Assembly: GCA_047495785.1 (NCBI GenBank)
Contig: JBLDXI010000030.1
Location: 558,001-622,000, forward strand
Direction of reading: 5' to 3'
Length of the DNA stretch: 64,000 bases
Origin: Lepidodermella squamata
Lineage: Eukaryota > Animalia > Gastrotricha
Shown here piece by piece: positions 9,510 to 63,692 of the stretch. Each line of letters opens with the position of its first letter. Position 1 is the stretch's first letter. A program made the translations under genes and the position numbers. The notes under the pieces are model-generated. The model saw only the letters and a list, made by a program, of their open reading frames with translations, was not told the DNA's origin and did not search any database.

Positions 9510-9982
9510 TTAGCGGGAAGCATTCGCCATATTTTCGCTTGTGTCTGCTGCCGCGAAGCATTGGCCGTAGGTTCCGAAGTTGGACGAACAATGACTGTTG
9601 GTTGTAATGTATATTTAGAAATGTTTTGCTTAGTTATTTTTTAACACTTACTATCCGTCGCAGCACTTCAATCCATTTAGGCAGGAAACGGTAGAGCATT
9701 TGTCTTTTGGCTTCACAGAGTCTGCCACTTCATGCGACTCTACCTCTACCTCACTCGGCTTAAAGCACAGGCCGTACGTGAAGCCTCTCTTCGAGCAGAC
9801 GCTGTTGGAGAATAAATTCGAGAATGAATACTGAATGTCAATAGATGTTGTAGAACTTACAGTCCCTCGCAACAAGGCAGGCCCATGTCGCACTCAGTGT
9901 TCGAGCATGTAGGTTTACTCGGTGAAGCCGAGACTGCCGCGATAACTAGGGTGATGGCAAAAATACAAAATGAACTTTTCAT
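9510..9982 (-). CDS. Knottin gene E: 2 ICK-like domains (3 exons)
   Basis: MKSSFCIFAITLVIAAVSASPSKPTCSNTECDMGLPCCEGL|VCSKRGFTYGLCF...CSTVSCLNGLKCCDGY|HCSSNFGTYGQCFAAADTSENMANASR*. Confidence 0.85.
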
Positions 9983-11053
9983 TTGCAGACAACTATTATG
10001 GAAAACTGGAAATGCGCTTTATCATAACCTTTCTATTGCCCTTATATAGGCTGGTCTGTGACTATTTGGCTTCGCTTGGGACACGCCTTGGGTGTCTTTT
10101 TGGGGCTATTAACTGGCTTATCTCGCTTATGAAGGTTGGAAAATTCGCTCGCATTATCAAGACAACGCTCAAGCTTCGGTAGGAAAATAATCAGGCAAGG
10201 GTAAAAATAATATTTCCCACACAGAAGGGCAAAATCGTTCATACTAAATACTTCAAATGTAGTAGCTAATAATATAGCAATCATCTCGTAGCCCATCGTC
10301 ATTTCATCAAGCCTGCGTGAAATGAAAATGGATGCCAATTATTTTCAATATTTTTCGTCAATTCTTTCAGCGTCGCAGTCAGACTGGTTCCAGATCGCAG
10401 CTCACTTCCTCCACCAAAAAGGGCTCGTTAACTATGAATAGACCTTCGTATACTGTTTCGAGAATAGGGCCGTAGTTTGGCCCTGATTTTCCAGTCATTA
10501 GAACTAAAACACTAGGCGCGGCTAAGCGTTGTGATCGGTAGTGTGAAGGCTAAGAATTTCAGCCCCGGTTTGAAATGTCCCAACTAGTAGCAATCGCAAC
10601 AATTTCTGCAAAGTCGCCTTTGCTAATTCTCTTTCAGACTTGGCGATGCGGTCAAAATTACTTCCGGTGGATCATCTTTGATTAGTTGCTGATGCCGGTT
10701 GGTTTCATGTCTTGGAACGCCTGCCGCGCTTCTGCTTGCTAGCTGCTTGATCTTCTGTAGCCTCCTGCTTAGGCTGCGGTGTTGCTACAGTTATTTATAA
10801 TGGATCATTCAATTCATAATTCATATTCAATTCAATTCATAGTCATCAAAGTTTACAGAAAGAACCCAATATCCTCTCGAAAAAATGGTTTTCGATATGC
10901 GTTGCTTGGTAGCCGGAAAGCGGAGTCATTTCAAGCAGCCTACAGACTACAACATGAATCAGAATAATTTGCAAGAGTTGTACTGTGTACTGAATAACTA
11001 TTTATTAAATATTACAGAGGATTTTTCAGAGAGTTTTACGCGTCCATTCAAAC

Positions 11054-12350
11054 TTAAGCTAACATCAATATGTAGAGAACAATATCGGCGAGACACGTCG
11101 AAATTATAACGATAACGCCCAAGATTAGATCAAGAAGTCGAATTAAGGTAATTTTCCTCGAATTCACTTCCAGGATTTTTTGATCCGCGCGCTGTGCGTA
11201 GTTAGAAACCGCCAACATGTAGCAAGTTAAAGCCATGCCAATGACGTACTTCAGAGCTATTCCAACGACGAGGTAAATAACTTCAGAGGTCGATGGAACC
11301 TCAGCTGCAAGTAAGCCGAGGGTAACAGAGTTAGCTAAGACCACAGTCATGCTGAATGCTGGCCTGTCAGGCGTATCAGGCGGCATACTCAAGCAGAACA
11401 GTTGGGTGATGAAGAAGCCATAGGTCGGAACAAAAATTGTTGTAACGTAATAACGCGCTTGGCGCTGAAACCGTATTTTCAGGTTGATTTCATACTGTAT
11501 GAAGTTATCGCCATGCTTCCCAGGAAATTGATCAAACGTTGTAATATTTGTACCCATATTTTTAAGTAGCCATATATCATTCTCGGGCATGAAGTTTTCC
11601 AGATGCTCGAATTCTAGCACGACAAATTCAGAAACATCGAACGTATCGACTGGCCACAGATTCAAAGAACAGTTGAATACATCAAATGGAAACTTTGCGA
11701 AGGACGTGTCGCAAATCGATGTTATGGTACCCATTGCATCTAAGCTTCCATAGAACTTTCGGTCATCTGTCAAGCCAGCTTTCGCGTTCTTTGTCATTCT
11801 AACAATATTATAAACTGTATGATTCATATTAGGAATAATTGATGGTAGATTACGATTCGAATGGAAAATTGGTTGCGAATCCATTTTCGTGGGAAACCAC
11901 CGGGTACCATATCGGTTCATCATCCGGTTTCCCGATTGGGATGGGAAAAGAGACCAGAGTCGGATACTTCTCGCAGGCTTCACGTGAAATATCAGTATTT
12001 AGGCGCGAGCAGTTGATTGGCTGTCCGCAGTTGTAGAGCCACTCGAAGCGAAAAACTCCACTCATGCAAAGCCTTGGAAAATAATTCAAGTAGTTTTCAA
12101 GAAAAATCAAACGACGCCTTTCTCACGTTTTGTCCATATCAGCGATATTAACGAAACGGGTTGTTACGATTCTGAGGGATACTTTGAGCTTCTCACCACA
12201 TTTCATCTTGCTTTCAGCCGGCAGATTAGTTGAGGTTGAATCGCGGTAGGCTTCCATAAGGTCGGCTCGAATAGTCGAGATATCAGAAATTGAGTCTGAA
12301 GGCCTTATCGAAATGGTGAAAACCGTAATCAGAACATGCATTACCGTCAT
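11054..12350 (-). CDS. Divergent Cys-loop ligand-gated ion channel subunit (about 3 exons)
   Basis: Signal peptide exon ~12350-12127, exon ~12072-11858 (FRFEW...IWYP), and a last exon with the Cys-loop CDTSFAKFPFDVFNC and four TM helices (RYYVTTIFVP; PDRPAFSMTVVLA). Confidence 0.85.
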
Positions 12351-28348: not shown

Positions 28349-29095
28349 TTAATTTAAAGGCAGCTCGTCGATTCTGTCGTCCAAGTCATCACAAAGGAAA
28401 TCCTCTTGAATTCCCATCAGACGCAACCTCTCTATAAGCGTAATTTTCAAAAGCGATGCTAGCCGAGCATAACTTTTACATATGATGAAAGCGTCCTTAG
28501 GTTGTAATTCGCAAGTAATCCGTTGACCGTGGGCGAAAGCATTCCGAATCCTAATCAGCTTATCCAAAATATCTTTGTTTTTGTTGCTGCTTCCAGTTAG
28601 ACCTGTTAAATGGCGTTCGCCAGAGTTAGCAATAAGGTTATTCATCTCAGGGTCGATTGCATCAGCCCATTTTGTAATCTCGTCCTTCAGGGGAGTGCGA
28701 ACATTATCCTTGTCAAGCTCGGGAAACGCCTCCAATAGAACTAGCAGTAGTTTATGAATGTTTTTGTCATCCGGCCTTATGAGGCCGAAGAGACTTGCGG
28801 GTAGTATTGAGTCAAAGACTTCTTTTTTTGGTATATTGGGATAAATCTTAACTAAATGAGTTAATGCTATCTCTTCCGCTATGTCTCTGTCCATGAAATG
28901 CCTATCCATAACCAAAGTCCAAACAGCATGAACTATCTGGGCAACTGCCCGCGTGAAATCAGCGTAAGCCATGGTGACAGCTCCGTGGTAGAAAGAGTTT
29001 ATGAGAACATAGTCTTGGAGTTGCGACAGAGATCCAGCAGCAGGGGTATGTACTAAGTCCGCAGTTCGTCTGAACAAGTTGATATCAACCGACAT
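28349..29095 (-). CDS. Helical protein with RxxxxH (RNAFAH) motif; putative HEPN-superfamily domain
   Basis: ORF of ~250-277 aa, mostly helical. LIRIRNAFAHG near the C-terminus fits the HEPN R-N-x-x-A-H pattern. Confidence 0.55.
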   Translation of the reverse strand: MSVDINLFRRTADLVHTPAAGSLSQLQDYVLINSFYHGAVTMAYADFTRAVAQIVHAVWTLVMDRHFMDRDIAEEIALTHLVKIYPNIPKKEVFDSILPASLFGLIRPDDKNIHKLLLVLLEAFPELDKDNVRTPLKDEITKWADAIDPEMNNLIANSGERHLTGLTGSSNKNKDILDKLIRIRNAFAHGQRITCELQPKDAFIICKSYARLASLLKITLIERLRLMGIQEDFLCDDLDDRIDELPLN

Positions 29096-29416
29096 TTCGT
29101 TGACAAAGCTGAACTGCAGTGGGTGACAAAAAAATAGCCAATTGTCGATGAATAACAGCAGCGTTGAAAGCTGAGATATCATAGCCAGCTCATGGCAGCT
29201 TTTAACATGAGTGTGACAAAGATAAGACGTTTCTTATCAAAACCAATGGCAAGAATAAGTGTGAAAGTTTCTTCGATAAGCATATTTTTCATGTTCCTCA
29301 GCAAGTCGGATTCAAAATCTTGTTTACATTGTGCTATCCAACCGTGAAAATTTTTCAACCTTTCTATCAGCCAGTGTTCGCGATTAAATCCGTAAGCTGA
29401 GGAGTCTATTAATTAT

Positions 29417-45887: not shown

Positions 45888-46921
45888 CAGGGTATGATAC
45901 CGACCGGTTTTTTTGTTGAAAAAACCAATGGCAAATAATGTAAAGAGAATTCCTAATAACGTAAATAAAATAAAAATTACAGTAGTACCACCATGGGTAG
46001 TATTCAGGGTATTTATTCTGAACGGTTTTTATTCTGAAAAAACCGCCCACCAGTTTAAACCGATTTATACCGGTAATAAACACCGGTTTTTTAATTTCAC
46101 CGGTTTAAACCGGTTTAAACCGGTGAAAAAAACCGGTTTATTTTATATATGCTAAAATCACTGAAATGTCTTATTTGACATAGCCAGAGCTCGCTAGCAC
46201 TTGGTCCTTTAGAGATTTGGACTGTACCACGTGATTCTACGTGAAAAACTGCATATCACACGGCCATTTTTCTCACCCGGAATAAAAAAATCTCTTAGTG
46301 CAATAAAACAATAGAAAAAAACTAAAAAGCGCAGTTATCTCCGGAAGTATGATGACTAGTAAAGTTCTGAGAACGGATTCGGATCCGCCGGAGTTTCTAC
46401 GGGGGGTTTCAACGACAAAGAAAGCGGTTTTGCCGGTTTTATTTGAAAATTTCAACTTGAAAGGTCTAAAACCGCCTAATTATACCCTACCGGGAGTAAA
46501 ACTGATTTCAGGATAGTTTGTTTACCATGATCAATATCTTCATGAAAATTTGGGATCTAAGGTAGAATTTTCCGCTGAACACGATGGTGACATCGAATCA
46601 ACCGCATCGATTATCGAATATCGATTATTGGTAACTGATCGAATGATCGATTTTTCGAAATTTAGCACAATCGATTTTATGTAATACAGTGTAGTCTTTC
46701 GAAAGTATTGCGGCTGTGCGGTATTGATCCTGGGGACATAATGACTCTTAGACAACTTCTGGCTGGCTGTTATATATGAAAATGTGAGCTTTTTGCGGGA
46801 AAACACCCCAAAAACCGCTTTTTCAAAAAACCGCGGTTTATTCAGGCCCTACAAAAACCGGTATAAACCGGTACCGGTTTCAACCGGTTTATACTGGTTT
46901 GAGTTTAAACCGAATACCCTG
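45888..46921. mobile_element. Non-autonomous hAT-type DNA transposon (~1.03 kb)
   Basis: Termini CAGGGTAT...ATACCCTG with an exact 8-bp target-site duplication AAATCAAA (45880-45887 and 46922-46929). Dense subterminal AAACCG/CGGTTT repeats at both ends; no long ORF. Confidence 0.85.
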
Positions 46922-47270: not shown

Positions 47271-47967
47271 TTAAGATAACATCAGTGAGAAGAGAATTGC
47301 GTCAATAATCATTACAATTAGCACTGCTGAGAGAGCTATTGCCATGTCAAGAAGGCGATGCAAGGGTAAGACCAGGAAATTTTTCAACTTGAAAACACGA
47401 GATTTCTGTGACTCTGGGATACTAGGACTCAAGCAAGTGTAGGCCGTGATTACGACTGCAACAATGAATTTAACTGCGACCATGTAGACAAGGTAGACAT
47501 GATCTGAAGTCTTTGGCATCATGCCGAAGATCAAAGTGAGAAATACAATGTAAGAAAGCACGACAGTCACGCAAAACGCAGATTGGTCCCTATTCATAGG
47601 TTCGGCCATCAAAGAGACGACTTGTAAGATGAAAAGGGTGATGGTTGGCACGAAGATATTGCAAAAGTAGTAGCCACTTTTTCGGCGAAATCGAATCGTC
47701 ATAAAAATTCGATCAAAAGAGAACAGGTTATCTTGCTGCAATTCACTGCTGTTATACCCGAATACCTCGACAAGCGACCAAATGTCACTATCAACGATAA
47801 AGCTGTTGCCAGCGGACATGTCGACTTGCAACACTGAAAGGCGGAGCGCTAGGAATCTGTGATCATCACTGGATTCTAAAACTAGCGAACAGTCTTGCGT
47901 ATCGAAGGGAAATTTGCGGTAGCTGAATGCCGTGCAAGTAGTATGTGACGACCAAAATATTCCGATC
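47271..47967 (-). pseudogene. 3' half of a Cys-loop channel gene; 5' half absent or displaced by the Maverick insertion
   Basis: IFWSSHTTCTAFSYRKFPFDTQDC and four TM helices are intact. Similarity stops at ~47,970, where element sequence begins; no signal peptide or N-terminal exons nearby. Confidence 0.7.
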
Positions 47968-48443
47968 TGTGACCGTTGAGAATACCCGAAAAAACCCGAT
48001 AATACCCGGTAGTACCCGATTCTCCATGGCAACGCGGGGTCGCGCATATCAGATCATTGAATATTAATCGACGCGATTAATAACACAAATAAATTTATAT
48101 GGGGATTTTATTTCGTCATTTTCGTCATTTTTCAGATTATGTCACGCAAATGTCATCATTTTTGTAATTTTTCGCACTTTTTGATACAATAACACCTCTC
48201 AGACAAGGTGTGAATTATCGCCGCGGGAAAAAGAATGCGTGCACAGGAACGTGGGTCAAGAGGTGACGCCCACAATGGGAGTTATCAGAACACAATAGGT
48301 CACAACACCACTAGAAATCACGCATTCGACCCGTCTAAAATCTGCGGATTGACAACTTTTCTTTACAACCGCCGCGGCATCGCAAGCATTAACATCAGCA
48401 GAGTTGAACAACATTCATCGCCGGACAAATTCAAGTAGCTAGC

Positions 48444-49867
48444 ATGAATAAAGTGAGTAATACTTCCATGTGTGGAGCAAAAAAAAACACACATTCATTC
48501 AATATATAATTTTAACGGTTTTTCACTAATTTTAGTCTTCTTCGTGCGATTCCTTATCAACCAATGGCGAAAATGCAATATTCGACGACGACGACACGCC
48601 GAATTTGACGCTGATCGCACCGCACTTACCGGCTACTTGCATGGCCGCCAGCACGGCGAATGTTCATGTCGGCGGATGTCCCGCGCCGAATCGACGAATT
48701 TCGCTGTTCGCTGTAAATCATGCATCGAATTGTCGGGGCACATCGACCCGCTCCCCTACCAGGCTTCGTAACACCCCGGTTGTCATCCCCCTGCACCGTC
48801 TCGATAGGGCGACATCCCAGCTGAGAAATCGCTTCGTAAATATTCCGCTCAATTATTTTGTCGAATCGTCATCCTCATCGCCCTCTGATCCGAGTATTTC
48901 TGGCGGTTTCAGCCCTGACGTTCCCAGTTATGGCAGCGGTAGCGATGTTTCGAACGATTTAGTTTTTTTTACATCTAATTCGAGTTGTACATCGGCTAGT
49001 AAATCGGATGAATTTGAGCAGTTTTCGCCGCTTCCGTTGTCGACGTCTTCATCTCCATCGGTGCTTTCAACACCGTCATCATTAGACGTGGCCTTGAAAT
49101 ATTATGACGTATCAAATGAAACCGTCTGTTTTTCCTGCGAAAAAGCATCCGTCCAAACATTCGAATTCAACGTTTGCCATCATCAAATGTGTTCTGCTTG
49201 TCTCTTCACCGATATCGATTATTCGGCATTTTCATTCGACGTTCAAATTTGCCCGGCATATTATTGCCGCGGTATGCTTCCCCAGACAGTAACTCCTCTT
49301 CGCGACCACATTTATCCAAACGACTACTTCGAGGGGAGAGACTGTTTTCCGGCGACTAAATTCTGCGCAAATTGCAGCGCCGACGTTCCGCTCGCCCGTC
49401 GCAACAGGGCGATAGTACAGTGCCAGATTTGTGAGTCGGCGTATTGCGGCCACTGCAGCATATTCAAACTCAACCATGCGTTCGAAGTTGCCAATCGCCA
49501 ATTGCAACGATTCCCGGAAACAATTACCGCATCAGACATATGCAGGGTGACTAAACACGACGGTTGCGATTCAAGATTCGCCTGCAATGCCGACGTTGAA
49601 AACTCTGAGCCACACGTTACTTCTATCAGCAACAAACTTGTGTCCCGCATTATTTATGACCACGATGTTTTGCCATCAATTGAGGCCACTGTGCAGCTAA
49701 TCCATGCCCGTGGAGAAGATGTCCGCGAAATCGCGGAATCTGCTCGCCTTTTACCCGACAAAAAGGACAAATTCACCAGGCTGATGCGCGCTGCAGCTGT
49801 CGCCGACGTTCTCGGGTGCGCTTATTTACGACGCTATTACAGACTTATGGCGAAGGCGGTCTATTAA
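48444..49867 (+). CDS. RING + B-box (TRIM-like) putative E3 ligase; exons 48444-48452, 48536-49867
   Basis: ATG-AAT-AAA|GTGAGT...CACTAAT..TTAG| splices in frame to the 420 aa ORF. RING-like CFSC...CHHQMCSAC...CPAYYC; B-box-like FCANC...CQICESAYCGHC..H; helical C-terminus. Confidence 0.7.
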
Positions 49868-50078
49868 ATAAAAAAAATAAAATTAAAATAAAAATTAATT
49901 CTCATTTTTTCAATACTATTCACTAGTTCTCAGTGTGTGTCTGTTCTTATCTGATTTGTTGCTGTTACCATTTTTGATTATACTAGCATGGCTCGCAGTA
50001 AATGAATTGTATAAAGCTGCATTTTATTGTTCATGATTGCTCATTACTCGAATTTTTTGTTGTTGCGATAAATAAATA

Positions 50079-50666
50079 ATGACGGATCAAGAACTCATCG
50101 CGGACTTTTATGTGTCAAATATTGTTAGCAGTTTTTCGATAAAAACTAATTTGGATCTCAAGAAACTAGCCAGAACGTTGCATAACACGGAGTACCGAAA
50201 TAAAAATTTGAAAAGTGCGCTCGTTGTTCGGTTCAAAAAACCCCGAAAATTTACAGCTTTAATTTTTGGTTCTGGTAAAATTATTGTTACCGGTTCTCGC
50301 ACTGAGACAGAAGCCAGAGAAAATTCGCGCATTATTGCTCGAAAAATTCAAATTAAATGCGGATATTTATTAGCCAAATTTGCCGAATTCAAAATCATTA
50401 ACGCAGCAGTTCATGGGCGCCTACCTATTGCAACACCTTTGAACCCTCAGAATTTCGCGGTGATAATGCGTGAGATATGTCTTACAGCGCTATGGGATAT
50501 AAAATTCCCGGCCGGGTGTCGATTAGTGTTGCGTGAGTACCCAACGTTGAAAATCACCGTATACTACACGGGCGCGGCGATAATATGCGGATGGAAGCTG
50601 TGTATTACTCAACTCAATAACGCGCTAAACGCTGTGATAATGCGTGCACTACAAGCAACCGCTTAA
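50079..50666 (+). CDS. TATA-binding protein (TBP)-like, core domain only
   Basis: SNIVSSF..LDLKKLA..NTEY...ALVVRFKKPRKFTALIFGSGKIIVTGSRTE.EAR...R.IARKIQ is TBP repeat 1. A divergent second repeat follows (FKIIN...FPAG...TVYYTGAAIICG). Confidence 0.88.
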   Translation: MTDQELIADFYVSNIVSSFSIKTNLDLKKLARTLHNTEYRNKNLKSALVVRFKKPRKFTALIFGSGKIIVTGSRTETEARENSRIIARKIQIKCGYLLAKFAEFKIINAAVHGRLPIATPLNPQNFAVIMREICLTALWDIKFPAGCRLVLREYPTLKITVYYTGAAIICGWKLCITQLNNALNAVIMRALQATA

Positions 50667-51038
50667 CAAGTGAGCATGATCACGCTAAAACTGTAAAAGT
50701 ATATATTTCCTCACACCGATTTTATTGGACCCGAAAAAATGTAACCGCCACTTGAATTCTCAGCATCGCGGCGGGTGCAACCGTTACAGCGGCGAATTGC
50801 ACCCAACGCATACCTCGCGTGATGCGACAAAACTCCCCCGCCGCGGTCGCCTGTTTAATGAGGAAAGCGGCGGCGAGCCAGTATGACAGTTTTAAAGGCG
50901 GTGCCATCGCGCTATCTCCTACCGGCTACAACCGGAAAATCGCGGCTTGTCTAAAATACGATGCATTCACGCCAATATAAATACGCCCTAATTTGTCGAT
51001 TAGTCTCTCATCAGTCTACCTGGAGGCAACACCAGCAA

Positions 51039-51066
51039 CTCTCTCTCTCTCTCTCTCTCTCTCTCT
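51039..51066. repeat. (CT)n microsatellite upstream of the PC4-like ORF
   Basis: About 14 CT units. Confidence 0.9.
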
Positions 51067-51093
51067 TGCATCAGTACATACATCATCAATAGC

Positions 51094-51729
51094 ATGACTA
51101 GCTCTGTAGTAAACGATTTTTTCTTCAAAAACTCACCAGTTATCGAGGTCGAAACTGCCGGAGATGTAGTATCAGACTCTCAGCAAATTTCGCTAGATCC
51201 ATCGACTCTGGATGGCAAAAGTCGATTGTCCATTTTCTCCAGGTTTCGTCAACACGTCCCTGCAAAAGTTGCAAAAATGTCACATTTAGCAGCTAATTCA
51301 CTCGATGGCGAATCGTATGTTATGTTGGCACTCGTCGATGCAGACTGCGATGACCCACTCTACTGCTTGGGAGTTTTTAACAAATCGGAGGCTCCTAAGT
51401 CTTATTATTTACGCAAAGGCCTATATCTGTTCAAATCTGAACTGGTAGACATCCTTAAGGCCATTAAAGAAGCTAGGGTTAACTGGGTGTCCAGCGTGGT
51501 TGAAAAACTAGCTGCTGAGGAGTTGCCTCTTGGAAACTCGCCACCCTATCGAGTTTGTGGCAATTTGTACGCCAAAGTTTTCGCTTATCGCGGCAAACTT
51601 GGGCTTTGCAAACTAGTCGACCTCAGGATTCACAAACAGGACAATACTGCAACGGTGGATGGCATCGCGCTTAAGGAGGACGAGTTTCAAAAGTTACCCG
51701 CGGCTATCGAGACTATCCTTGCAGACTAG
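51094..51729 (+). CDS. PC4-like ssDNA-binding/coactivator protein (possibly two PC4-type repeats)
   Basis: C-terminal AKVFAYRG...LVDLRIHK...ATVDGIALKEDEFQKL resembles the PC4 pattern (V..FKG..LIDIR....PTKKGISL...QW..L). An earlier RKGLYLFKSEL segment may be a second copy. Confidence 0.6.
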   Translation: MTSSVVNDFFFKNSPVIEVETAGDVVSDSQQISLDPSTLDGKSRLSIFSRFRQHVPAKVAKMSHLAANSLDGESYVMLALVDADCDDPLYCLGVFNKSEAPKSYYLRKGLYLFKSELVDILKAIKEARVNWVSSVVEKLAAEELPLGNSPPYRVCGNLYAKVFAYRGKLGLCKLVDLRIHKQDNTATVDGIALKEDEFQKLPAAIETILAD

Positions 51730-52338: not shown

Positions 52339-55300
52339 ATGGAATTGAAAAAAACTAGTCAGCTAGAACTCTCGAGAAAATTCAATTTGGGTATCACAAC
52401 TTACGTATTTCGCGAAAATGAAGCATCAAATTCAATCACCACCCCCCAAAATCAGTCAGGCGAAGGCCGCCCCGCAAAACGTCGTCGTCGAGTCTCCGTC
52501 GCCACCACCACCACCTCCAACCCCTCAATCATCAAAACAGCGCCGAAAAATTCAACCACCCAAAAAAAAGGTGATAACATCCTCCAATCCGACACCCAGG
52601 GTTCCCAAGTTTCCGATAGTTCCGAAATCTCAGTCGACCCCCATACCCAATCACCCAATCAGTCAGCTGTTAGCCCAGTCAATACCACAGATAAGGGTGT
52701 ACAAGGTTCAACAACTAAGCGAGCAACCGTCGACATCGTCGACCAATTCAAAGAGCTTTACGCTAGTTATCTACAAATATCAGCAGCCATAACTCGGGAC
52801 TTCCAACCACGGGACTATGTTAGACTCATTATTTGCAACGATAGCCTACTTCAAACCCCAATTTGTACAAAATATCTGAAAGTTGAGAATTTTACTGTTG
52901 ATGAGGTGGTATCGCAAACGTCAAAAGTTCTCAATTCGAAACAGGCCCTCTCTCATAAGTGAGTTCCTTCAGCAGTTATAAAAAAAATTGCCTCCTTAAA
53001 ATCTTAACATTTGTTTTCTATTACCCTTAAGTCCCAACGATTGGAAGATTTATGTGAAACACGTTAAGGTGGGCGAAGGAGTTAAAGGGGCAGCATCCCG
53101 AGCAAAAATAGGAGAAAAAATCACATCATTTCTCGCGCGCTTAACCTCCATCCTATTGATTTACACCGACGCGTCTTTGCCGGACAATAACTACTGCTTG
53201 TTCAGGTCGGTTGTCGTTGGGAAAGGGGCTAGGGATTTCGAAGCCGGCCGCATTTCAACACACTCGTGGGATCTACTGAGGTATAACGCTCGCCATCAAA
53301 CTATTAGAGCTAAGCAGCTAATGAATTCTGCCAAAATTCCATTAAATAAACAACGATACGACGTAGACGATTTAGACCTAATCTACCCAGTCCTGAGAGC
53401 TGAGAATCCTAATTATCAGCTCGTAGTTTTCAACATATCCAATAAAGCCCTCGTGAAATGTTTACCTCATTCGTTACCCCACTGTCATCAGTCCGAGATC
53501 GAACGAATATTCATTCTCTACATCCCTCCCGAAGAAATGGTGTCGAGTGATCTTACCTCAATTGGTCATTTTTGCGCTGCCAAGTCGATCGGTGCAGTGA
53601 TTCCGGATTTTTGCCTGGTGTGTCTGAAACAGGTCCGTAGTTTGAGGCGGCATAAGTGTCGTACTTCCGACCAACGACAGTGCCATCGATGCTTCATGTA
53701 CAACAACCCGTCGTGCTTCGTTGCATCGTCCCCATCGACGTATCAGTATTGCGCTTCTTGTTTTCGGGCCTTCGCATCAGCTGAGTGTTATGATCGCCAT
53801 CTGCAAATACAAAAATTTACAAAAACAATCACAACGACTGCGTGTGAGCGATATGCTTACTGTTCGGAATGTCGAGGCACGGTATTAAGGGGGCGGTTAA
53901 CAAAACATAAGCATCGAAAACCCTCATGCCCACACTGCGGAGTGGTACTCAGCACATGGCCAGTTAGTGAGAAAGATGCTGATCCTGAAGAAATAGAACA
54001 TGTAACAACTAGAAACGACCACGTGTGTTGCCTGCCCGTGTTTAAGCCCAAGGTTTATGGTTCGAAATCTGACACTAAGAATAGGTATTTTAACTTGACC
54101 GACTGGCCAATCACTATTTGCGCCGATATCGAAACGGTGAAAGAATCCAATTCGATTCTCTCGCCTGTACTCGTGTGCGCAAAAATTCACTGCGAATTAT
54201 GTCGAGAATTTTCTTCGAGCCAAATTTGCGATTTTTGTGCCCCCTCTGACCACGTTTTTATCACACAAGACCCCGCATGGCAGTGCAAAAATGAGCCAGT
54301 CAAAAATTTCTTGCAATTCATTTTCAAACTTTGTGAGGAAAAGAACAAAAAAATCTTGGTCTTTTTCCACAATTTGCGAGGTAAATTTAAAAAAAAAACA
54401 CCACCACCAGTACTATAAATTTTCCAATAATTAATCAAAAGGTTTCGATGGATTCTTCGTGCTACAAGCTCTTCATGATTTGAAAATTCGAATCAAGACA
54501 GTGGAAAATAACGGGCTTCTTACTTGCATCGAAGTGAAGAAAAAAATCAAGTTTCTTGATAGCCTGAATTTCATGCAACAAAAATTGTCCTCGCTACCTA
54601 GCATGTTTGGCTACTCGGAAACTAAAACCATTTTCCCCATCGAGTGGCTAACTCCCGAGCATTTTGATCGCAATTGTCAAGGCGCGATTCCCCCCTTAGA
54701 CGCATTTACACCACGTCAACGCTCGGAAGATATGGCACTTATCAAGCAATGCCAAGCTAGAGGATTGTATTATAAGGAGGATCTAACAGCATATTGTTTG
54801 AACGATTGCGAGGTGAGCATGCGAAAAAATAGCTATATGATTTTATATTATTGCTGGTTTTTTTATGCTCAAAGGTTCTAAAGAAAGCTGTTATCGCATT
54901 TCAATCTATGATTCGAAACCTCACAACTTGTGATCGCTTTCCTACCGGATGGGACCCGTACGAAAATAGCATGACAATTTCGTCCCTAAGGTAATATCCT
55001 AGTTCATCACCACCTCTCCTAACACCAATTGGACCCATTTTCAGCCAAAATATCTACCGATCAGTATTCATGACCCCATCCAGTATTACCCTTATACCAG
55101 AAAAAGGATTCAACAGCAATAACAACCAAACAAGTGACTTGGCAGATATGTTCCTTACCTGGTTAAGTGTCCGGGATCAGTTGTACTTGCAAACAGCTTT
55201 CAACATCGGCGAAAAACGCATCTTCATCCCAGAATTGAACAAATACGTCCGCGTCGATGGCTACCAGGACCGGTCGGAATTAAATCAACCTGATCTAGTT

Positions 55301-57241
55301 GTTGAGGTTTGCCCATTGGCAATCTCTTGCACTGTTTTAATCGCCTTTTTCCGTTTCATTTTCATGTTCACTCGAAGATATGCGGCTGCTTCTATCATTC
55401 GTAAGCACAACAAAATTTTGAAATTTTTTATTAAAAATTATGTTTCATTTACCAAGGTGTGACCAGTGCTTTGCTGTACATCATCAGCATGGATCGCTCC
55501 ATCCTATTGCACGAGTCTCGCATCAAACCGTGTTCAACAGCACCATTCGCAGGCTAGACGCCATTAAGAACGCCGGCTACAACGTGGTTGTTTACTGGGA
55601 ACATGAAATTAAACAGCTGGAAAGGACGGATCTGGCTTTTCGAGCTTTTGCCGAAAATTGGCGAAGTAATCGCGACGACTCAGTGACTCCATTGAAACCG
55701 AGAGACGCCCTGTTTGGAGGTAATGAAAAAAATTGCATAATTATTAAAATGTGATTATTGAAATATTCCGTATATTAGGGAGGGTGGAAGTATTTGCAGG
55801 TCACATCAGGTCGACTGAGACATCGAAAATATGGCACTACGACGTTGTTAGGTGAAATAGTACAAAAAATTACTTCAATTATTATTTGTATTTTTTTTCT
55901 AGCATGTATCCGTACATTCAATTCTCTCACAATTTCGGCGTTGGGCCAGTGTGTAAGAAGTCTTTGCAGTTGCGCGGAAATGACGCGGCTATTCGCAGCT
56001 ACATTCTCAGTGCTGAGAATTTCGGGCGATGTTATGGACTTATTAAAGTTAAAATAGCCGGCCCCTGGCCATCTATGACTCCCAAGTGTCTACCTCCAGT
56101 TCTTCCGATTAGAATAAAAAAGCGTACTTACTATGCTTTATGTGCGAAATGTGCTGAGATACACGAGCAAAATCAATGTGAGCACAAACAACCCATAGAT
56201 CGCGCGTGGACGGGGACATATACGTTAGCTGAAATTTACACTGCGTTAGAGGAAGGGTACCACTTGATAGAAGCGTATGAACTCTGGGTTTGGCCAGATA
56301 CTAGTAACAACCTATTTCGGCCGTTTATCGCTAAATTAATGGCGTTAAAAATAGAGGCTTCGCCATTTGAGCACGCGGATGACAAAGAAATGCGCGAAAA
56401 CTTTGCCAAACAATGTCGCGACCAGCAGAACCTAGAGATTAACCCAGATAAACTGACAAAATCAGGCACGCCTGCGATGAGATCGACAGTGAAACAAGCG
56501 CTAAATAGTAATTGGGGTAAACTTGCGCAACGGGCATCATGCGAGCGAGTAATATACGCTGATACTAGGAAAGATCTACTCGATATATGGGCAGACCCTG
56601 AAAAAACCATTATTGACTTGCAACCGATAGGTCGCAATGACGCGAGTCAGAGAGTAAGGATTGTATACGAAACTAGTGACGAATACGTTACAACGCTAAA
56701 AACCACAAATCTAGTTCTCGCCGCGCATATAACTGCATATGGGCGCCTTTATCTGTTCAAATCGATGAAAGCGTTGATAGCAGCAGGGGCAAAGCTAGTC
56801 TATTGCGATACTGACTCGATTGTTTTTGCCGCCGCAAATGATGATTCTGAGTGGCGCGAAGCTATAAAAGTTGGAAATATGTTAGGCGAATGGTCGAATG
56901 AATGTGGGGACGAAAGTACGTTCATCGACGAATTCATCAGCCTAGGGTGCAAACTGTACAGCGCAAAACTATCATCAGGGGTTGTAAAGCTGCGGGCAAA
57001 AGGAATATCACGAAATTTGAAATACTCACCTGACGATGTGTGTTCATTTGAAAACATGAAACACCTATTGACCAACCATTTTAGCGACGCGAAGAAATTA
57101 CCAGTTCCGCAGACCACCATGAAGCGGATGAGGGCACCAGTAGCAGGGATTAGGGTAGATGAAGGAATGAAGTGCATAGGTATCACTCTAAATAAGCGGC
57201 GATTTAACGCAAGCGACTTGTCGACATCGGACCCTTACTAG
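52339..57241 (+). CDS. Protein-primed family B DNA polymerase (pPolB), 9 exons, 1471 aa, with OTU-like and VSR-like accessory domains
   Basis: Exons 52339-52958, 53032-54380, 54442-54812, 54875-54990, 55045-55306, 55378-55400, 55457-55719, 55779-55851, 55903-57241 total 4416 nt (1472 codons, in frame). Motifs: ADIET (ExoI), HNLRG|FDG (ExoII), YCLNDCE|VL (ExoIII), E|ICGCFYHS|C, LFG|GRVE, YDVVS|MYP (motif A), KQALNSNWGK (motif B), YCDTDS (motif C). Confidence 0.93.
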
Positions 57242-57302: not shown

Positions 57303-57428
57303 GTGTGTAAATAACAATAAAAATTTGAAAAAATCCAACTACATCAGTGTAATTTTTATATACCCTTAGAAATATTGCCGAATTGTTATTACGCTGCTCA
57401 TCGTATCGCAAACATCAAAGCCATCATC

Positions 57429-57983: not shown

Positions 57984-58319
57984 TCTGTGATATCGGTGTA
58001 ATGATCTACCCTCCCTCGCAAGTCACCTACTGGTATTTATGTACATCTTACCTATAATTGTCATGTATCATTGCAGTGCTGTATAAACTACTTATATCCA
58101 ACTACCAATCTATATATCTGTTCTTTTTCTACATAACGAAAAAAAATCGCAACTAAAAATAAATATTAATCGCCATCTTGATTAATAATCGCCACGTTAT
58201 CCCAGTTTCGTTTTTTTTTTATCTACAAAAATTATATACCCACCAATAAACAGTATAGCATTGTAATTAATAATAATTTTTGTAATTTTTAGACTTGCTT
58301 ATTTCTAATTTCTAATTCT

Positions 58320-60550: not shown

Positions 60551-61326
60551 ATGCTACATAGCAACTGGGATTTTCCTTGGCAACGCGACGTCGCCGGTAT
60601 CGGATCGATTCGACTCATCATTGGACCAATGTTCAGGTACGTTGCATATATTTTATGATGATCAATATAAGTTAATTGCTTCTATTCAATAGTGGGAAAT
60701 CAGCAGAGCTGCATCGTAGAGTCAACAAATATGCTGAAGCTGAATGTGGTGTCGTGCTGATTCAATATGCGTATCCCATTGTCGACCGTATTCATGGGTG
60801 CACCGCAACTCTGCACAGAAATGTGGCAATTCGCTCACTGCAGTCACTCGAATCATCTGTTACGCTGACCTCAATGAACAATTATCGTTTGATTGCAATC
60901 GACGATGGGCAATTCTTTCCGTCTGATTTGGCAGTTGTTGCTCATCGAATGGCTAGCGCTGGGAAGGATGTGATAATCGCATCACTGGATTCTGATTTTG
61001 CTCGTCGACCTTTTTATCATATTGCAGACCTGATTTGTCGAGCGGAAAGTGTTTCAAAACTATTGGCAGTATGCAAAAACTGTCTGAACCCTCACGGGCT
61101 ATACACCTATCGATGGTCAAGCGATAATACTCTTCGTGTGTATGGTCGTGGTAACTACGTTGCTCTGTGTCGCCGGTGCTATTTGGAATTTCAAATGCTC
61201 GCCGGGTCAATAGCCAACCAAGAACAACAACAACAACAACAGCAGCAATCATCTTCATCCGCAACAACGGCAGCAGCCTCATCTATATCTTCTTCTGTAG
61301 AATTCTCATCATCGTCGATTCTGTAG
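60551..61326 (+). CDS. Thymidine kinase (TK1/poxvirus type II family); exons 60551-60636, 60693-61326
   Basis: Removing a 56-nt intron restores the P-loop GPMFS|GKSAEL. Also IAIDDGQFF, IIASLDSDFARRPF, KLLAVCKNC and YVALCRRC (Zn lasso); poly-Q/S tail. Confidence 0.88.
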
Positions 61327-62915: not shown

Positions 62916-63692
62916 CTACTCTGTCGTGGAAAGTGATTTTGCGAATGACACGTCGTTTACATACTTGGGCACGCGCTCCGTGTATGTGTCTGGTAGAAAA
63001 ATGGACCCTCCGGCAAATTCAGCTCCGATCCCGAGAAAATCACGTACCCGATAAAACTCGGGTATATTGTGACGCAAATCTAGCACCAAATACTGGTAAG
63101 GTTTACTGGTAATTTTAGTAAATGCATCAAATATTTGTCTCCAAATTGTAGGCTCGGATTTCATGAGTAGTATTTTAACTGACATCGTTTCCGATCTGTT
63201 GCGATACAAGATGAAAATGTCAGTGTTTGCCGCGATTATGGACGAATATTTTCCCCGCGGATGAACGCGTTGCTGGCTGATCATTATCGAAACGTTACAG
63301 TGGTGTTTAAAACGCGTAAAATAATCCGCAATCAATTCGCTGTCATGTGCTCGCAAAAAATTGTCCTCAATTATCATCAACGACGTGTCACTTGGTGCGA
63401 AATAATCAGCGGTCAGATCGTCGATCCCGTTCAGGAATTCGATTTTCACCCCGCGGGCTTTGTACACATCCTGAGCGAGCTTGTCATGGTAGTCGGGGGT
63501 ATTGACCCCATAGCAATAGACAATTCGATTCGGTCTTGGGACGAATATATCAGCATCTAGCAACATTTGGCGAGTGGTTGTCGATTTTCCTGAACCCGAG
63601 TTCCCGATCAACGCAATCGTGACTGGTAAGTGAATTGAACCAATTATCTCCATTTCCGCCCCTGATTGGTAGCTTGCTGACATGATTGGCAA
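62916..63692 (-). CDS. Genome-packaging ATPase (A32/FtsK-HerA superfamily)
   Basis: Walker A GNSGSGKST, RIVYCYG, Walker B LMIIED, FTRFKHHCNVSIMISQQ, KPYQYLVLDL. The start codon may be 63683 or 63653. Confidence 0.9.
   Translation of the reverse strand: MPIMSASYQSGAEMEIIGSIHLPVTIALIGNSGSGKSTTTRQMLLDADIFVPRPNRIVYCYGVNTPDYHDKLAQDVYKARGVKIEFLNGIDDLTADYFAPSDTSLMIIEDNFLRAHDSELIADYFTRFKHHCNVSIMISQQRVHPRGKYSSIIAANTDIFILYRNRSETMSVKILLMKSEPTIWRQIFDAFTKITSKPYQYLVLDLRHNIPEFYRVRDFLGIGAEFAGGSIFLPDTYTERVPKYVNDVSFAKSLSTTE

What the first reader, a model, noticed from the sequence alone, without database searches (positions are those of the whole stretch)
50079..51729. Adjacent element-encoded TBP and PC4-like genes: a possible private transcription module
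The TBP has no N-terminal extension, a well-conserved first repeat and a strongly diverged second repeat (which in host TBP contacts TFIIB). The next gene is PC4-like; PC4 is a Pol II coactivator and ssDNA-binding protein. TATA-like boxes precede both genes (TATAAA at ~50010 and ~50976). Inference: the pair could redirect Pol II to late viral promoters. Alternatively, the PC4-like protein is the SSB for strand-displacement replication.
Basis: partly seen in the sequence, partly recalled or inferred. Interest (0 to 1): 0.7.

Follow-up and report, generated by a model that had tools for sequence, protein, structure and literature searches.

The report
Polinton virus's lopsided TATA-binding protein
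A virus-like Polinton element inserted in an animal genome carries its own TATA-binding protein with one host-like half and one rewired half, which likely reads the element's own promoters, and the neighbouring gene is predicted to encode a single-stranded-DNA-binding protein that more likely serves replication than transcription.

Summary
Both genes lie in a Polinton/Maverick-type element (protein-primed polymerase, packaging-type ATPase, thymidine kinase) inserted among animal receptor genes. The TBP is real (Pfam 1.3e-20; model matches human TBP, Z 18.3, 177 residues). Its N-lobe is host-like. Its C-lobe is in frame but remodelled: the TFIIB-binding acidic stirrup is largely lost, and two of three positions that change TATA specificity in yeast TBPm3 are altered. 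The four intercalating Phe read Leu, Phe, Phe, Tyr. The second gene is probably PC4-like, but as a tandem single-chain (Pur-alpha I-II type) domain. Support is moderate: pLDDT 40, Foldseek best E 7e-4, Pfam below cut-off. It lacks a lysine-rich coactivator arm. Both TATAAA boxes are there, individually at chance level, and look like ordinary host-Pol II promoters. No shared late box was found, but the capsid block lies outside the window. Best reading: a viral altered-specificity promoter factor beside a separate replication SSB, not a two-protein module. Viral TBPs are known, one paper labels a TBP in related non-animal viruses, and this scan noted Polinton TBPs in six other windows, two with PC4. 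New variant of a known kind.

The parts
50079..50666 (+). Divergent TBP, 195 aa: host-like N-lobe (residues 9-101), remodelled C-lobe (102-195)
   Evidence: Pfam PF00352 1.3e-20; PDB phmmer; AF2 with 14-row alignment pLDDT 77; VIA Z 18.3, rmsd 2.6, 177 aligned to human TBP 7egb_P
51094..51729 (+). Probable tandem (type I, Pur-alpha I-II-like) PC4-fold protein, 211 aa; units about residues 60-140 and 150-211 after a 57-aa Ser-rich leader
   Evidence: Pfam PC4 E 0.091 sub-cut-off; ESM Atlas 0.76-0.80; AF2 pLDDT 40; Foldseek top 10 all Pur-alpha, best E 7e-4
50010..50045 (+). TATAAA (50010) with an initiator-like TCATT 31 nt on; candidate host-Pol II promoter of the TBP gene
   Evidence: sequence; inferred, not shown
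50976..51015 (+). TATAAATA (50976) with initiator-like TTAGT/TCAGT 24 and 35 nt on; candidate host-Pol II promoter of the PC4-like gene
   Evidence: sequence; inferred
52339..57241 (+). [quoted passage not shown]
   Evidence: Pfam DNA_pol_B_2 7.7e-8; tblastn with three intact viral pPolBs hits 53501-57133 in colinear order, frames 2 and 3; candidate introns
48641..49867 (+). Cys-rich ORF, 408 aa, RING/IBR-like (possible RBR-type ubiquitin ligase), first gene of the element
   Evidence: Pfam IBR_1 E 0.022, below cut-off; Cys pattern in sequence
47979..48018 (+). Probable left end of the element: starts AG, four imperfect 10-nt units ending ACCCG; abuts a 5'-truncated host ion-channel ORF
   Evidence: sequence; X1 contig begins at 47991; right end outside window, so terminal repeat and target duplication untested
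60551..61326 (+). Thymidine kinase, frame split by a 56-nt GT..AG stretch at 60637-60692 (probable intron)
   Evidence: Pfam TK 3.3e-23; contigs of runs X2 and X3 both start at 60691
62916..63683 (-). P-loop ATPase, Polinton packaging type
   Evidence: phmmer E 3.6e-6 to an ATPase ORF of the pPolB-bearing contig L034
63644..64000 (-). 3' part of a probable adenain-type cysteine protease, runs off the window
   Evidence: Gln..Cys-Gly motif in sequence; weak phmmer E 0.069 to an L033 ORF; family assignment recalled

Best explanation
An endogenous Polinton-type DNA virus encodes a TBP that keeps a host-like N-lobe and has a rewired C-lobe, and this protein likely acts as an altered-specificity promoter factor for the element's own genes, while the neighbouring predicted tandem PC4-fold protein likely works separately as the single-stranded-DNA-binding protein for strand-displacement replication. 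Steps: (1) shown: both ORFs are intact and lie with pPolB, TK and an ATPase in one element. (2) Inferred: host TBP and Pol II transcribe both genes early from canonical TATA plus initiator promoters. (3) Shown by alignment: the N-lobe keeps N69, V71, T112, L114, F116, T124 equivalents and 4 of 5 basic helix-2 residues, with F99 to Leu; the C-lobe keeps N159, F190, P191 but has V161A, V203K, L205T, F207Y, T215C and loses E188 and probably E186 (yeast numbering). (4) Inferred: because the C-lobe reads the 5' half of the box, the protein would prefer a non-canonical box, could still bind TFIIA-type partners, and would not recruit host TFIIB in the usual way, so Pol II would need another bridge (unidentified). 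(5) Inferred: the PC4-like protein folds as an intramolecular pseudo-dimer and coats the displaced strand.
For: TBP fold across both lobes. Asymmetric divergence with an open frame: 122 of 170 aligned positions differ from the closest canonical-looking TBP (L025), and with a nonsense:missense ratio of 0.06 about 3.7 stops would be expected even if only half arose on this lineage without selection (my arithmetic), so the frame was long under selection. V203 and L205 are two of the three TBPm3 altered-specificity positions, the C-lobe contacts the 5' half of TATA, and P191 fixes the first T (PMC1636458 passages). KSHV ORF24 likewise keeps more N-lobe than C-lobe residues, lacks the TFIIB acids, has a more polar DNA face and drives late promoters (10.1101/2025.08.25.672222 passages). 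The TBP scores higher with eukaryotic cellular TBPs (69-79 bits) than with archaeal (57-64) or IMG/VR ones (up to 60). For SSB: type I PC4-like domains bind and melt single-stranded nucleic acid (PMC7549692 passages); the T5 PC4 homologue lies among replication genes; the ORF's first 57 residues hold only 5 Lys/Arg.
Against: No target box was found: words shared by the three minus-strand upstream regions are no better than in shuffles, and the boxes reported in other scan notes (TAAGAA, TATATAAG) do not mark these genes. No TFIIB-like or Pol II-bridging gene was recognised in the 16 kb in view. No homologue of either protein was found, so dN/dS and conserved gene order are untested. The PC4 fold rests on a pLDDT-40 model; the wide VIA search gave only unspecific Z of 5.6 or less (Borrelia Pur-alpha Z 5.1 at rank 5) and a T5-family profile did not match. 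F99L and F207Y may simply weaken DNA binding.
Confidence: 0.42

Rival explanations
1. The TBP is a decoy or dominant-negative factor: its intact N-lobe soaks up TFIIA, TAF1, Brf1, Mot1 or NC2, or occupies TATA boxes without recruiting TFIIB, and so dampens host transcription or shields host TBP on viral promoters.
For: The N-lobe surface bound by these factors (PMC7221094 section 12) is largely kept (N36, R80, R84, R88, K93 by the alignment), unlike in the giant-virus TBPs that paper analysed; the TFIIB stirrup is lost; no late box or TFIIB substitute is in view.
Against: The C-lobe still keeps N159, F190, P191 and an aromatic at F207, more than a pure decoy needs; earlier scan notes report shared non-standard boxes before virion genes in other TBP-bearing Polintons (unchecked AI notes).
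Confidence: 0.22
2. One reading: TBP and the PC4-like protein form one private initiation module, the PC4-like protein acting as coactivator or promoter-melting partner in place of TFIIB.
For: The genes are adjacent and co-oriented; cellular PC4/Sub1 is a Pol II cofactor (listing); two earlier scan notes saw TBP and PC4-like genes in the same Polinton (unchecked).
Against: The ORF lacks a lysine-rich N-terminal arm (that this arm carries coactivator activity is recalled) and looks like a tandem single-chain domain rather than PC4 proper; each gene has its own promoter-like box; SSB is the simpler need for a strand-displacing polymerase next door.
Confidence: 0.14
3. The TBP has left transcription: it bends or binds DNA at the element's termini, or binds single-stranded DNA, as part of a TBP-SSB-pPolB replication cassette.
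For: Gene order TBP, PC4-like, small ORF, pPolB on one strand; Giardia TBP, which lacks three of four Phe, prefers single-stranded DNA (PMC12209930 abstract).
Against: Three of four intercalating positions stay aromatic and the basic N-lobe regulator surface is kept.
Confidence: 0.1
4. A captured host TBP gene that is now decaying, with no function for the element.
For: Repeat 2 is not distinguishable from shuffles by profile score; only one copy could be examined.
Against: Open frame of TBP-core length despite more than 60% replaced residues, and lobe-specific rather than even divergence; neighbouring genes also intact.
Confidence: 0.12

Closest known systems
Beta/gamma-herpesvirus viral TBP (KSHV ORF24; EBV BcRF1 and HCMV UL87 recalled)
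   Same: Nuclear DNA virus relying on host Pol II; TBP fold with better-kept N-lobe, lost TFIIB acidic residues and a more polar DNA face
   Different: ORF24 is a large protein with its own Pol II-binding domain and five partner proteins, keeps all four Phe and has a known TATTWAA box; this protein is a bare 195-aa core much closer to cellular TBP, with no bridge or box identified
TBPs of giant viruses (Nucleocytoviricota) and mirusviruses
   Same: Virus-encoded two-lobe TBP with diverged TFIIB-contact positions (PMC7221094; BFVD hits)
   Different: Those mostly pair with a viral TFIIB and have lost the eukaryotic N-lobe signature; here no TFIIB is in view and the N-lobe signature is largely kept; structural identity is 24-29% to eukaryotic TBPs against 7-19% to BFVD viral ones
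TBP-labelled gene in MELD viruses with adintovirus-like PolB (Starrett et al. 2021, PMC8502044, Fig. 5 legend)
   Same: A TBP-like gene in a pPolB-bearing mid-size linear DNA virus or related element
   Different: A label in a section on non-animal datasets, with no analysis in the text I read; I could not see the figure, so which element carries it is unknown to me
Type I PC4-like domains (Pur-alpha repeats I-II, Whirly, MRP1/2) and phage T5 PC4 homologue
   Same: Predicted two strand-sheet-plus-helix units in one chain; Foldseek top 10 rows Pur-alpha
   Different: About 13% identity; sequence features lean to PC4 rather than PurA; fold not firmly established
TRF2/TBPL1
   Same: TBP paralogue with changed intercalating residues and non-TATA targets
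   Different: TBPL1 has Trp at N-lobe L5.1; this protein has Phe63 there and Tyr in the C-lobe

Membership tests
TBP (PF00352) | Two-lobe saddle fold | tested here: met
   AF2 pLDDT 77 with a TBP alignment (the alignment leans the model to this fold); VIA Z 18.3, rmsd 2.6 over 177 residues
TBP (PF00352) | Pfam score above cut-off in both repeats | tested here: not met
   Repeat 1 73.4 bits vs cut-off 22.9; repeat 2 no hit
Canonical TBP | Four intercalating Phe (yeast F99, F116, F190, F207) | tested here: not met
   Leu44, Phe63, Phe143, Tyr162
Canonical TBP | Acidic C-lobe stirrup for TFIIB (yeast E186, E188 by my numbering) | tested here: not met
   Aligned to Trp139 and Ile141 ungapped; at most Asp140 remains with a one-residue shift
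Canonical TBP | Basic N-lobe surface for TFIIA, TAF1, Mot1, Brf1 | tested here: met
   N91, E93, R105 equivalents and 4 of 5 helix-2 basic residues kept, K138 to Ile (alignment; surface defined, residue list partly recalled)
Herpesvirus-type viral late TBP | Cognate non-canonical late promoter box | tested here: inconclusive
   None above chance in 3 minus-strand upstream regions or 12 upstream regions; capsid block outside the window
Herpesvirus-type viral late TBP | Own Pol II-binding domain | tested here: not met
   Protein is only the 195-aa core
PC4 (PF02229) | Pfam score above cut-off | tested here: not met
   12.7 vs 25 bits
PC4-like fold, type I | Two strand-sheet-plus-helix units in one chain | tested here: inconclusive
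   Seen in a pLDDT-40 model; Foldseek top 10 Pur-alpha, best E 7e-4; VIA unspecific; halves not similar by BLASTP
PC4 coactivator | Lysine-rich N-terminal regulatory arm (recalled) | tested here: not met
   Residues 1-57: 5 Lys/Arg, 7 Asp/Glu, 10 Ser
PC4-like fold | Single-stranded DNA binding | not testable with these tools
   needs a binding assay
Polinton/Maverick | Protein-primed family B polymerase | tested here: met
Polinton/Maverick | Packaging ATPase and cysteine protease | tested here: inconclusive
   ATPase E 3.6e-6 to an L034 ORF; protease only partial, E 0.069
Polinton/Maverick | Integrase, capsid proteins, terminal inverted repeats, target duplication | not testable with these tools
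   Element runs off the window and no genome is held

The most novel reading that the evidence does not exclude
Animal Polintons carry the smallest viral late-transcription switch yet seen: a bare TBP core whose C-lobe is re-cut at the classic altered-specificity positions to read a private box, still using host TFIIA through its N-lobe but bypassing host TFIIB, with a single-chain PC4-fold protein coupling promoter opening to genome replication.
Probability: 0.15. Interest if true: 0.8.

Novelty: new variant of a known kind. Interest (0 to 1): 0.5.

Why it matters
How Polintons/Mavericks time their gene expression is not settled in the papers I searched. A natural TBP with a host-like N-lobe and a C-lobe changed at the TBPm3 positions makes a direct test possible (SELEX, TFIIA and TFIIB pull-downs). 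It would show whether these small viruses evolved, independently of herpesviruses, a late-gene switch on host Pol II, and could supply an orthogonal TBP-box pair. A tandem PC4-fold SSB would fill a gap in the Polinton replication kit.

Tried and rejected
Homologue searches. TBP: none among 84 candidates; one hit among 8 for residues 45-110 (P0002), which is no closer than cellular TBP; none in viral contigs. PC4-like ORF: none among 221 candidates; one spurious S-layer repeat hit among 1.84 billion representatives; none in metagenome contigs, phages, PDB sequences, PHROGs or NCBIfam, or BFVD at E 0.001. Neither exact sequence is in the protein collection. A six-sequence T5-family PC4 profile gave nothing (hhalign probability 0.2%; hmmsearch); the profile is shallow. 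Seven IMG/VR loci found by a pPolB motif had no phmmer match to either protein; Pfam PC4 and TBP were absent in 3 of 3 records searched, 2 of 5 handles not held, and 2 handles sharing no further record. TBP with the PC4-like protein: complex prediction gave no answer (score 0.00, folded without alignment). Motifs: a shared 10-mer TTATATACCC before ORFs 57429 and 58320 is the only exact pair in the window, but it was picked after the fact and 261 of 300 shuffles of the 12 upstream regions share a word as long. A CAATATA word before three genes fails because one copy lies in the TK intron. The 38-nt repeat at 48018/60569 has its second copy in TK coding sequence. Reads: no RNA holder listed; X2 and X3 contigs do not cover the TBP gene, which is no evidence on expression; other copies of the two genes in these runs could not be examined. 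No whole genome is held. Literature: no paper in the listings analyses a Polinton TBP or PC4; the readable supplement text of PMC8502044 had no TBP or PC4 hit, but its figures were not visible.

Full report
CONTEXT. Positions 1 to about 47,970 hold arrays of ANF-receptor/7tm_3 GPCR and Cys-loop ion-channel genes, which point to an animal host (inferred; no genome is held). From about 47,979 to the window end lies a different block: a RING/IBR-like ORF, the TBP, the 51094 ORF, a protein-primed family B polymerase (Pfam 7.7e-8; colinear tblastn hits at 53501-57133 with three intact viral pPolBs), thymidine kinase (3.3e-23), an ATPase matching one in a pPolB-bearing IMG/VR contig (3.6e-6) and part of a probable cysteine protease. 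This is a Polinton/Maverick-type element; capsid, integrase and right end are outside the window and untested. The polymerase lies in several frames split by short AT-rich GT..AG stretches, and TK has a 56-nt GT..AG stretch at 60637-60692. Contigs of two runs from different studies (X2, guessed RNA; X3, kind unknown) both start at 60691 while X1 runs through, a weak hint of splicing and so of transcription by host Pol II. X1 holds the element almost letter for letter but may be the source sample.

TBP. ORF 50079-50666 matches Pfam TBP at 1.3e-20 over residues 9-91 only and 35 TBP-containing PDB sequences. With 13 TBPs fetched by motif or search, repeat 1 is 33-38% identical to 12 of them and repeat 2 is 17-28% identical to all 13; a reference TBP (L025) is 38-46% and 36-43% identical to the same 11 other rows outside the outlier L019. 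Repeat 2 alone does not beat shuffles, and no better piece lies in another frame. The model built on that alignment has both lobes (pLDDT 77 overall, 52-72 in repeat 2) and superposes on human TBP at Z 18.3, rmsd 2.6 over 177 residues; the alignment biases the model to this fold. Using yeast numbering read from the 1ngm alignment, the intercalating F99, F116, F190, F207 are Leu44, Phe63, Phe143, Tyr162. The N-lobe keeps N69, V71, T112, L114, T124, N91, E93, R105 and four of five basic helix-2 residues. The C-lobe keeps N159 and P191 but has V161A, V203K, L205T, T215C and loses E188 and probably E186. PMC1636458 (passages) states that I194F, V203T and L205V give yeast TBPm3 its altered specificity and that the C-lobe reads the 5' half of the box. 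PMC7221094 (passages and section 12) places TFIIB binding on two C-lobe glutamates, regulator binding on the basic N-lobe patch, and reports that viral TBPs lose both and mostly bring their own TFIIB. This protein differs: N-lobe patch largely kept, no TFIIB in view. The KSHV ORF24 preprint (passages) describes the same lobe asymmetry and loss of TFIIB acids in a late-promoter factor. An open frame after 122 of 170 aligned positions differ from L025 argues for long selection (about 3.7 stops expected if half the changes were unselected, from the 0.06 ratio); it does not show that this copy is active now.

THE 51094 ORF. No sequence relative was found. Three weak signals agree on the PC4-like clan: Pfam PC4 at E 0.091 on residues 147-211; ESM Atlas first hits in PC4 clusters at 0.76-0.80, which the tool rates as a lead only; and a single-sequence model (pLDDT 40) with strands 62-112 plus helix 114-140 and strands 153-194 plus helix 195-210, whose top 10 Foldseek rows are all Pur-alpha repeat I-II (best E 7e-4, the only one under 0.001; TM 0.21-0.34; Whirly, MoSub1 and YdbC lower down). 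Against: the wide VIA search is unspecific (best Z 5.6, Borrelia Pur-alpha 5.1), the halves are not alike by BLASTP, and a T5-family profile misses. I put the PC4-like fold at about 70%. PMC7549692 (passages) calls a two-unit single chain 'type I' and describes single-strand binding and duplex melting for it. The leader has no lysine-rich block. An SSB role beside a strand-displacing polymerase is the simpler reading; the T5 homologue also lies among replication genes.

PROMOTERS. TATAAA is at 50010 and 50976 as stated, but each is expected in 5-8% of shuffles and there are 10 on the + strand of the element. The TATA-like boxes before the RING-like, TBP and PC4-like genes each have an initiator-like word 24-35 nt on (5 of the other 13 and these 3 together give 5 of 16 boxes with such a word; background 10.7% of positions; motif and window chosen by me, initiator consensus recalled). 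That suggests ordinary host-driven promoters. No word shared by the three minus-strand genes beats shuffles, nor does any among 12 upstream regions.

PRIOR ART. Viral TBPs are known. Starrett et al. (PMC8502044 section 3.4; preprint passages) label a TBP in a figure of MELD viruses with adintovirus-like PolB; I saw the legend, not the figure. The nematode Polinton preprint has no mention of TATA or PC4 (passages). Six searches listed no paper analysing a Polinton TBP or PC4; the library lacks most subscription papers. This scan has six earlier unchecked notes of Polinton-type TBPs in other genomes, two with a PC4-like gene and four proposing a private late box; none is sequence-similar enough to be found by words. 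My test for their boxes here was negative but underpowered.

VERDICT. The two-protein module is unsupported. Best reading (0.42): altered-specificity viral promoter factor plus separate SSB; decoy 0.22; joint module 0.14; decay 0.12; replication role for TBP 0.10. New variant of a known kind, interest 0.5.

Noticed in passing
window 52339-57241 and 60637-60692: The polymerase and thymidine kinase genes of the element appear to carry short spliceosomal introns (50-90 nt, AT-rich, GT..AG); contigs of two runs start at the 3' end of the TK one.
   Followed up: partly
window 48641-49867: First gene of the element is a Cys-rich RING/IBR-like ORF (possible RBR-type ubiquitin ligase) behind a TATA plus initiator-like promoter; partly covered by contigs of X2 and X3.
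   Followed up: partly
window 47271-48047: A host ion-channel ORF whose 5' part seems replaced by the element's left end, as if the element inserted into the gene.
   Followed up: partly
window 57340-57365 and 58232-58290: ORFs 57429 and 58320, both without family hits, share TTATATACCC 72 and 87 nt upstream and an 11-nt TGTAATTTTTA word; not above the shuffle control, but a candidate box to test in relatives.
   Followed up: yes
window 1-47000: Clusters of long single-ORF family C GPCR-like genes (758-804 aa) and of ion-channel ORFs, plus a HEPN-like ORF at 28349-29182.
   Followed up: no
L039 2002-2571 and about 1550-1910: A metagenome contig with another short divergent TBP (P0002) that shares an eight-residue helix-2 word with the window's TBP; upstream DNA looks intron-rich and by eye PAZ-like, not verified; no polymerase in 3.3 kb.
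   Followed up: partly
L030, L031, L035 about 9940-11067: A pPolB fragment inside ankyrin-repeat-rich giant-virus-like contigs of 339-733 kb.
   Followed up: no
window 45890-46900: A region of palindromic ACCGGTTTAAACCGGT units with high summed contig depth, probably a small non-autonomous repeat.
   Followed up: no
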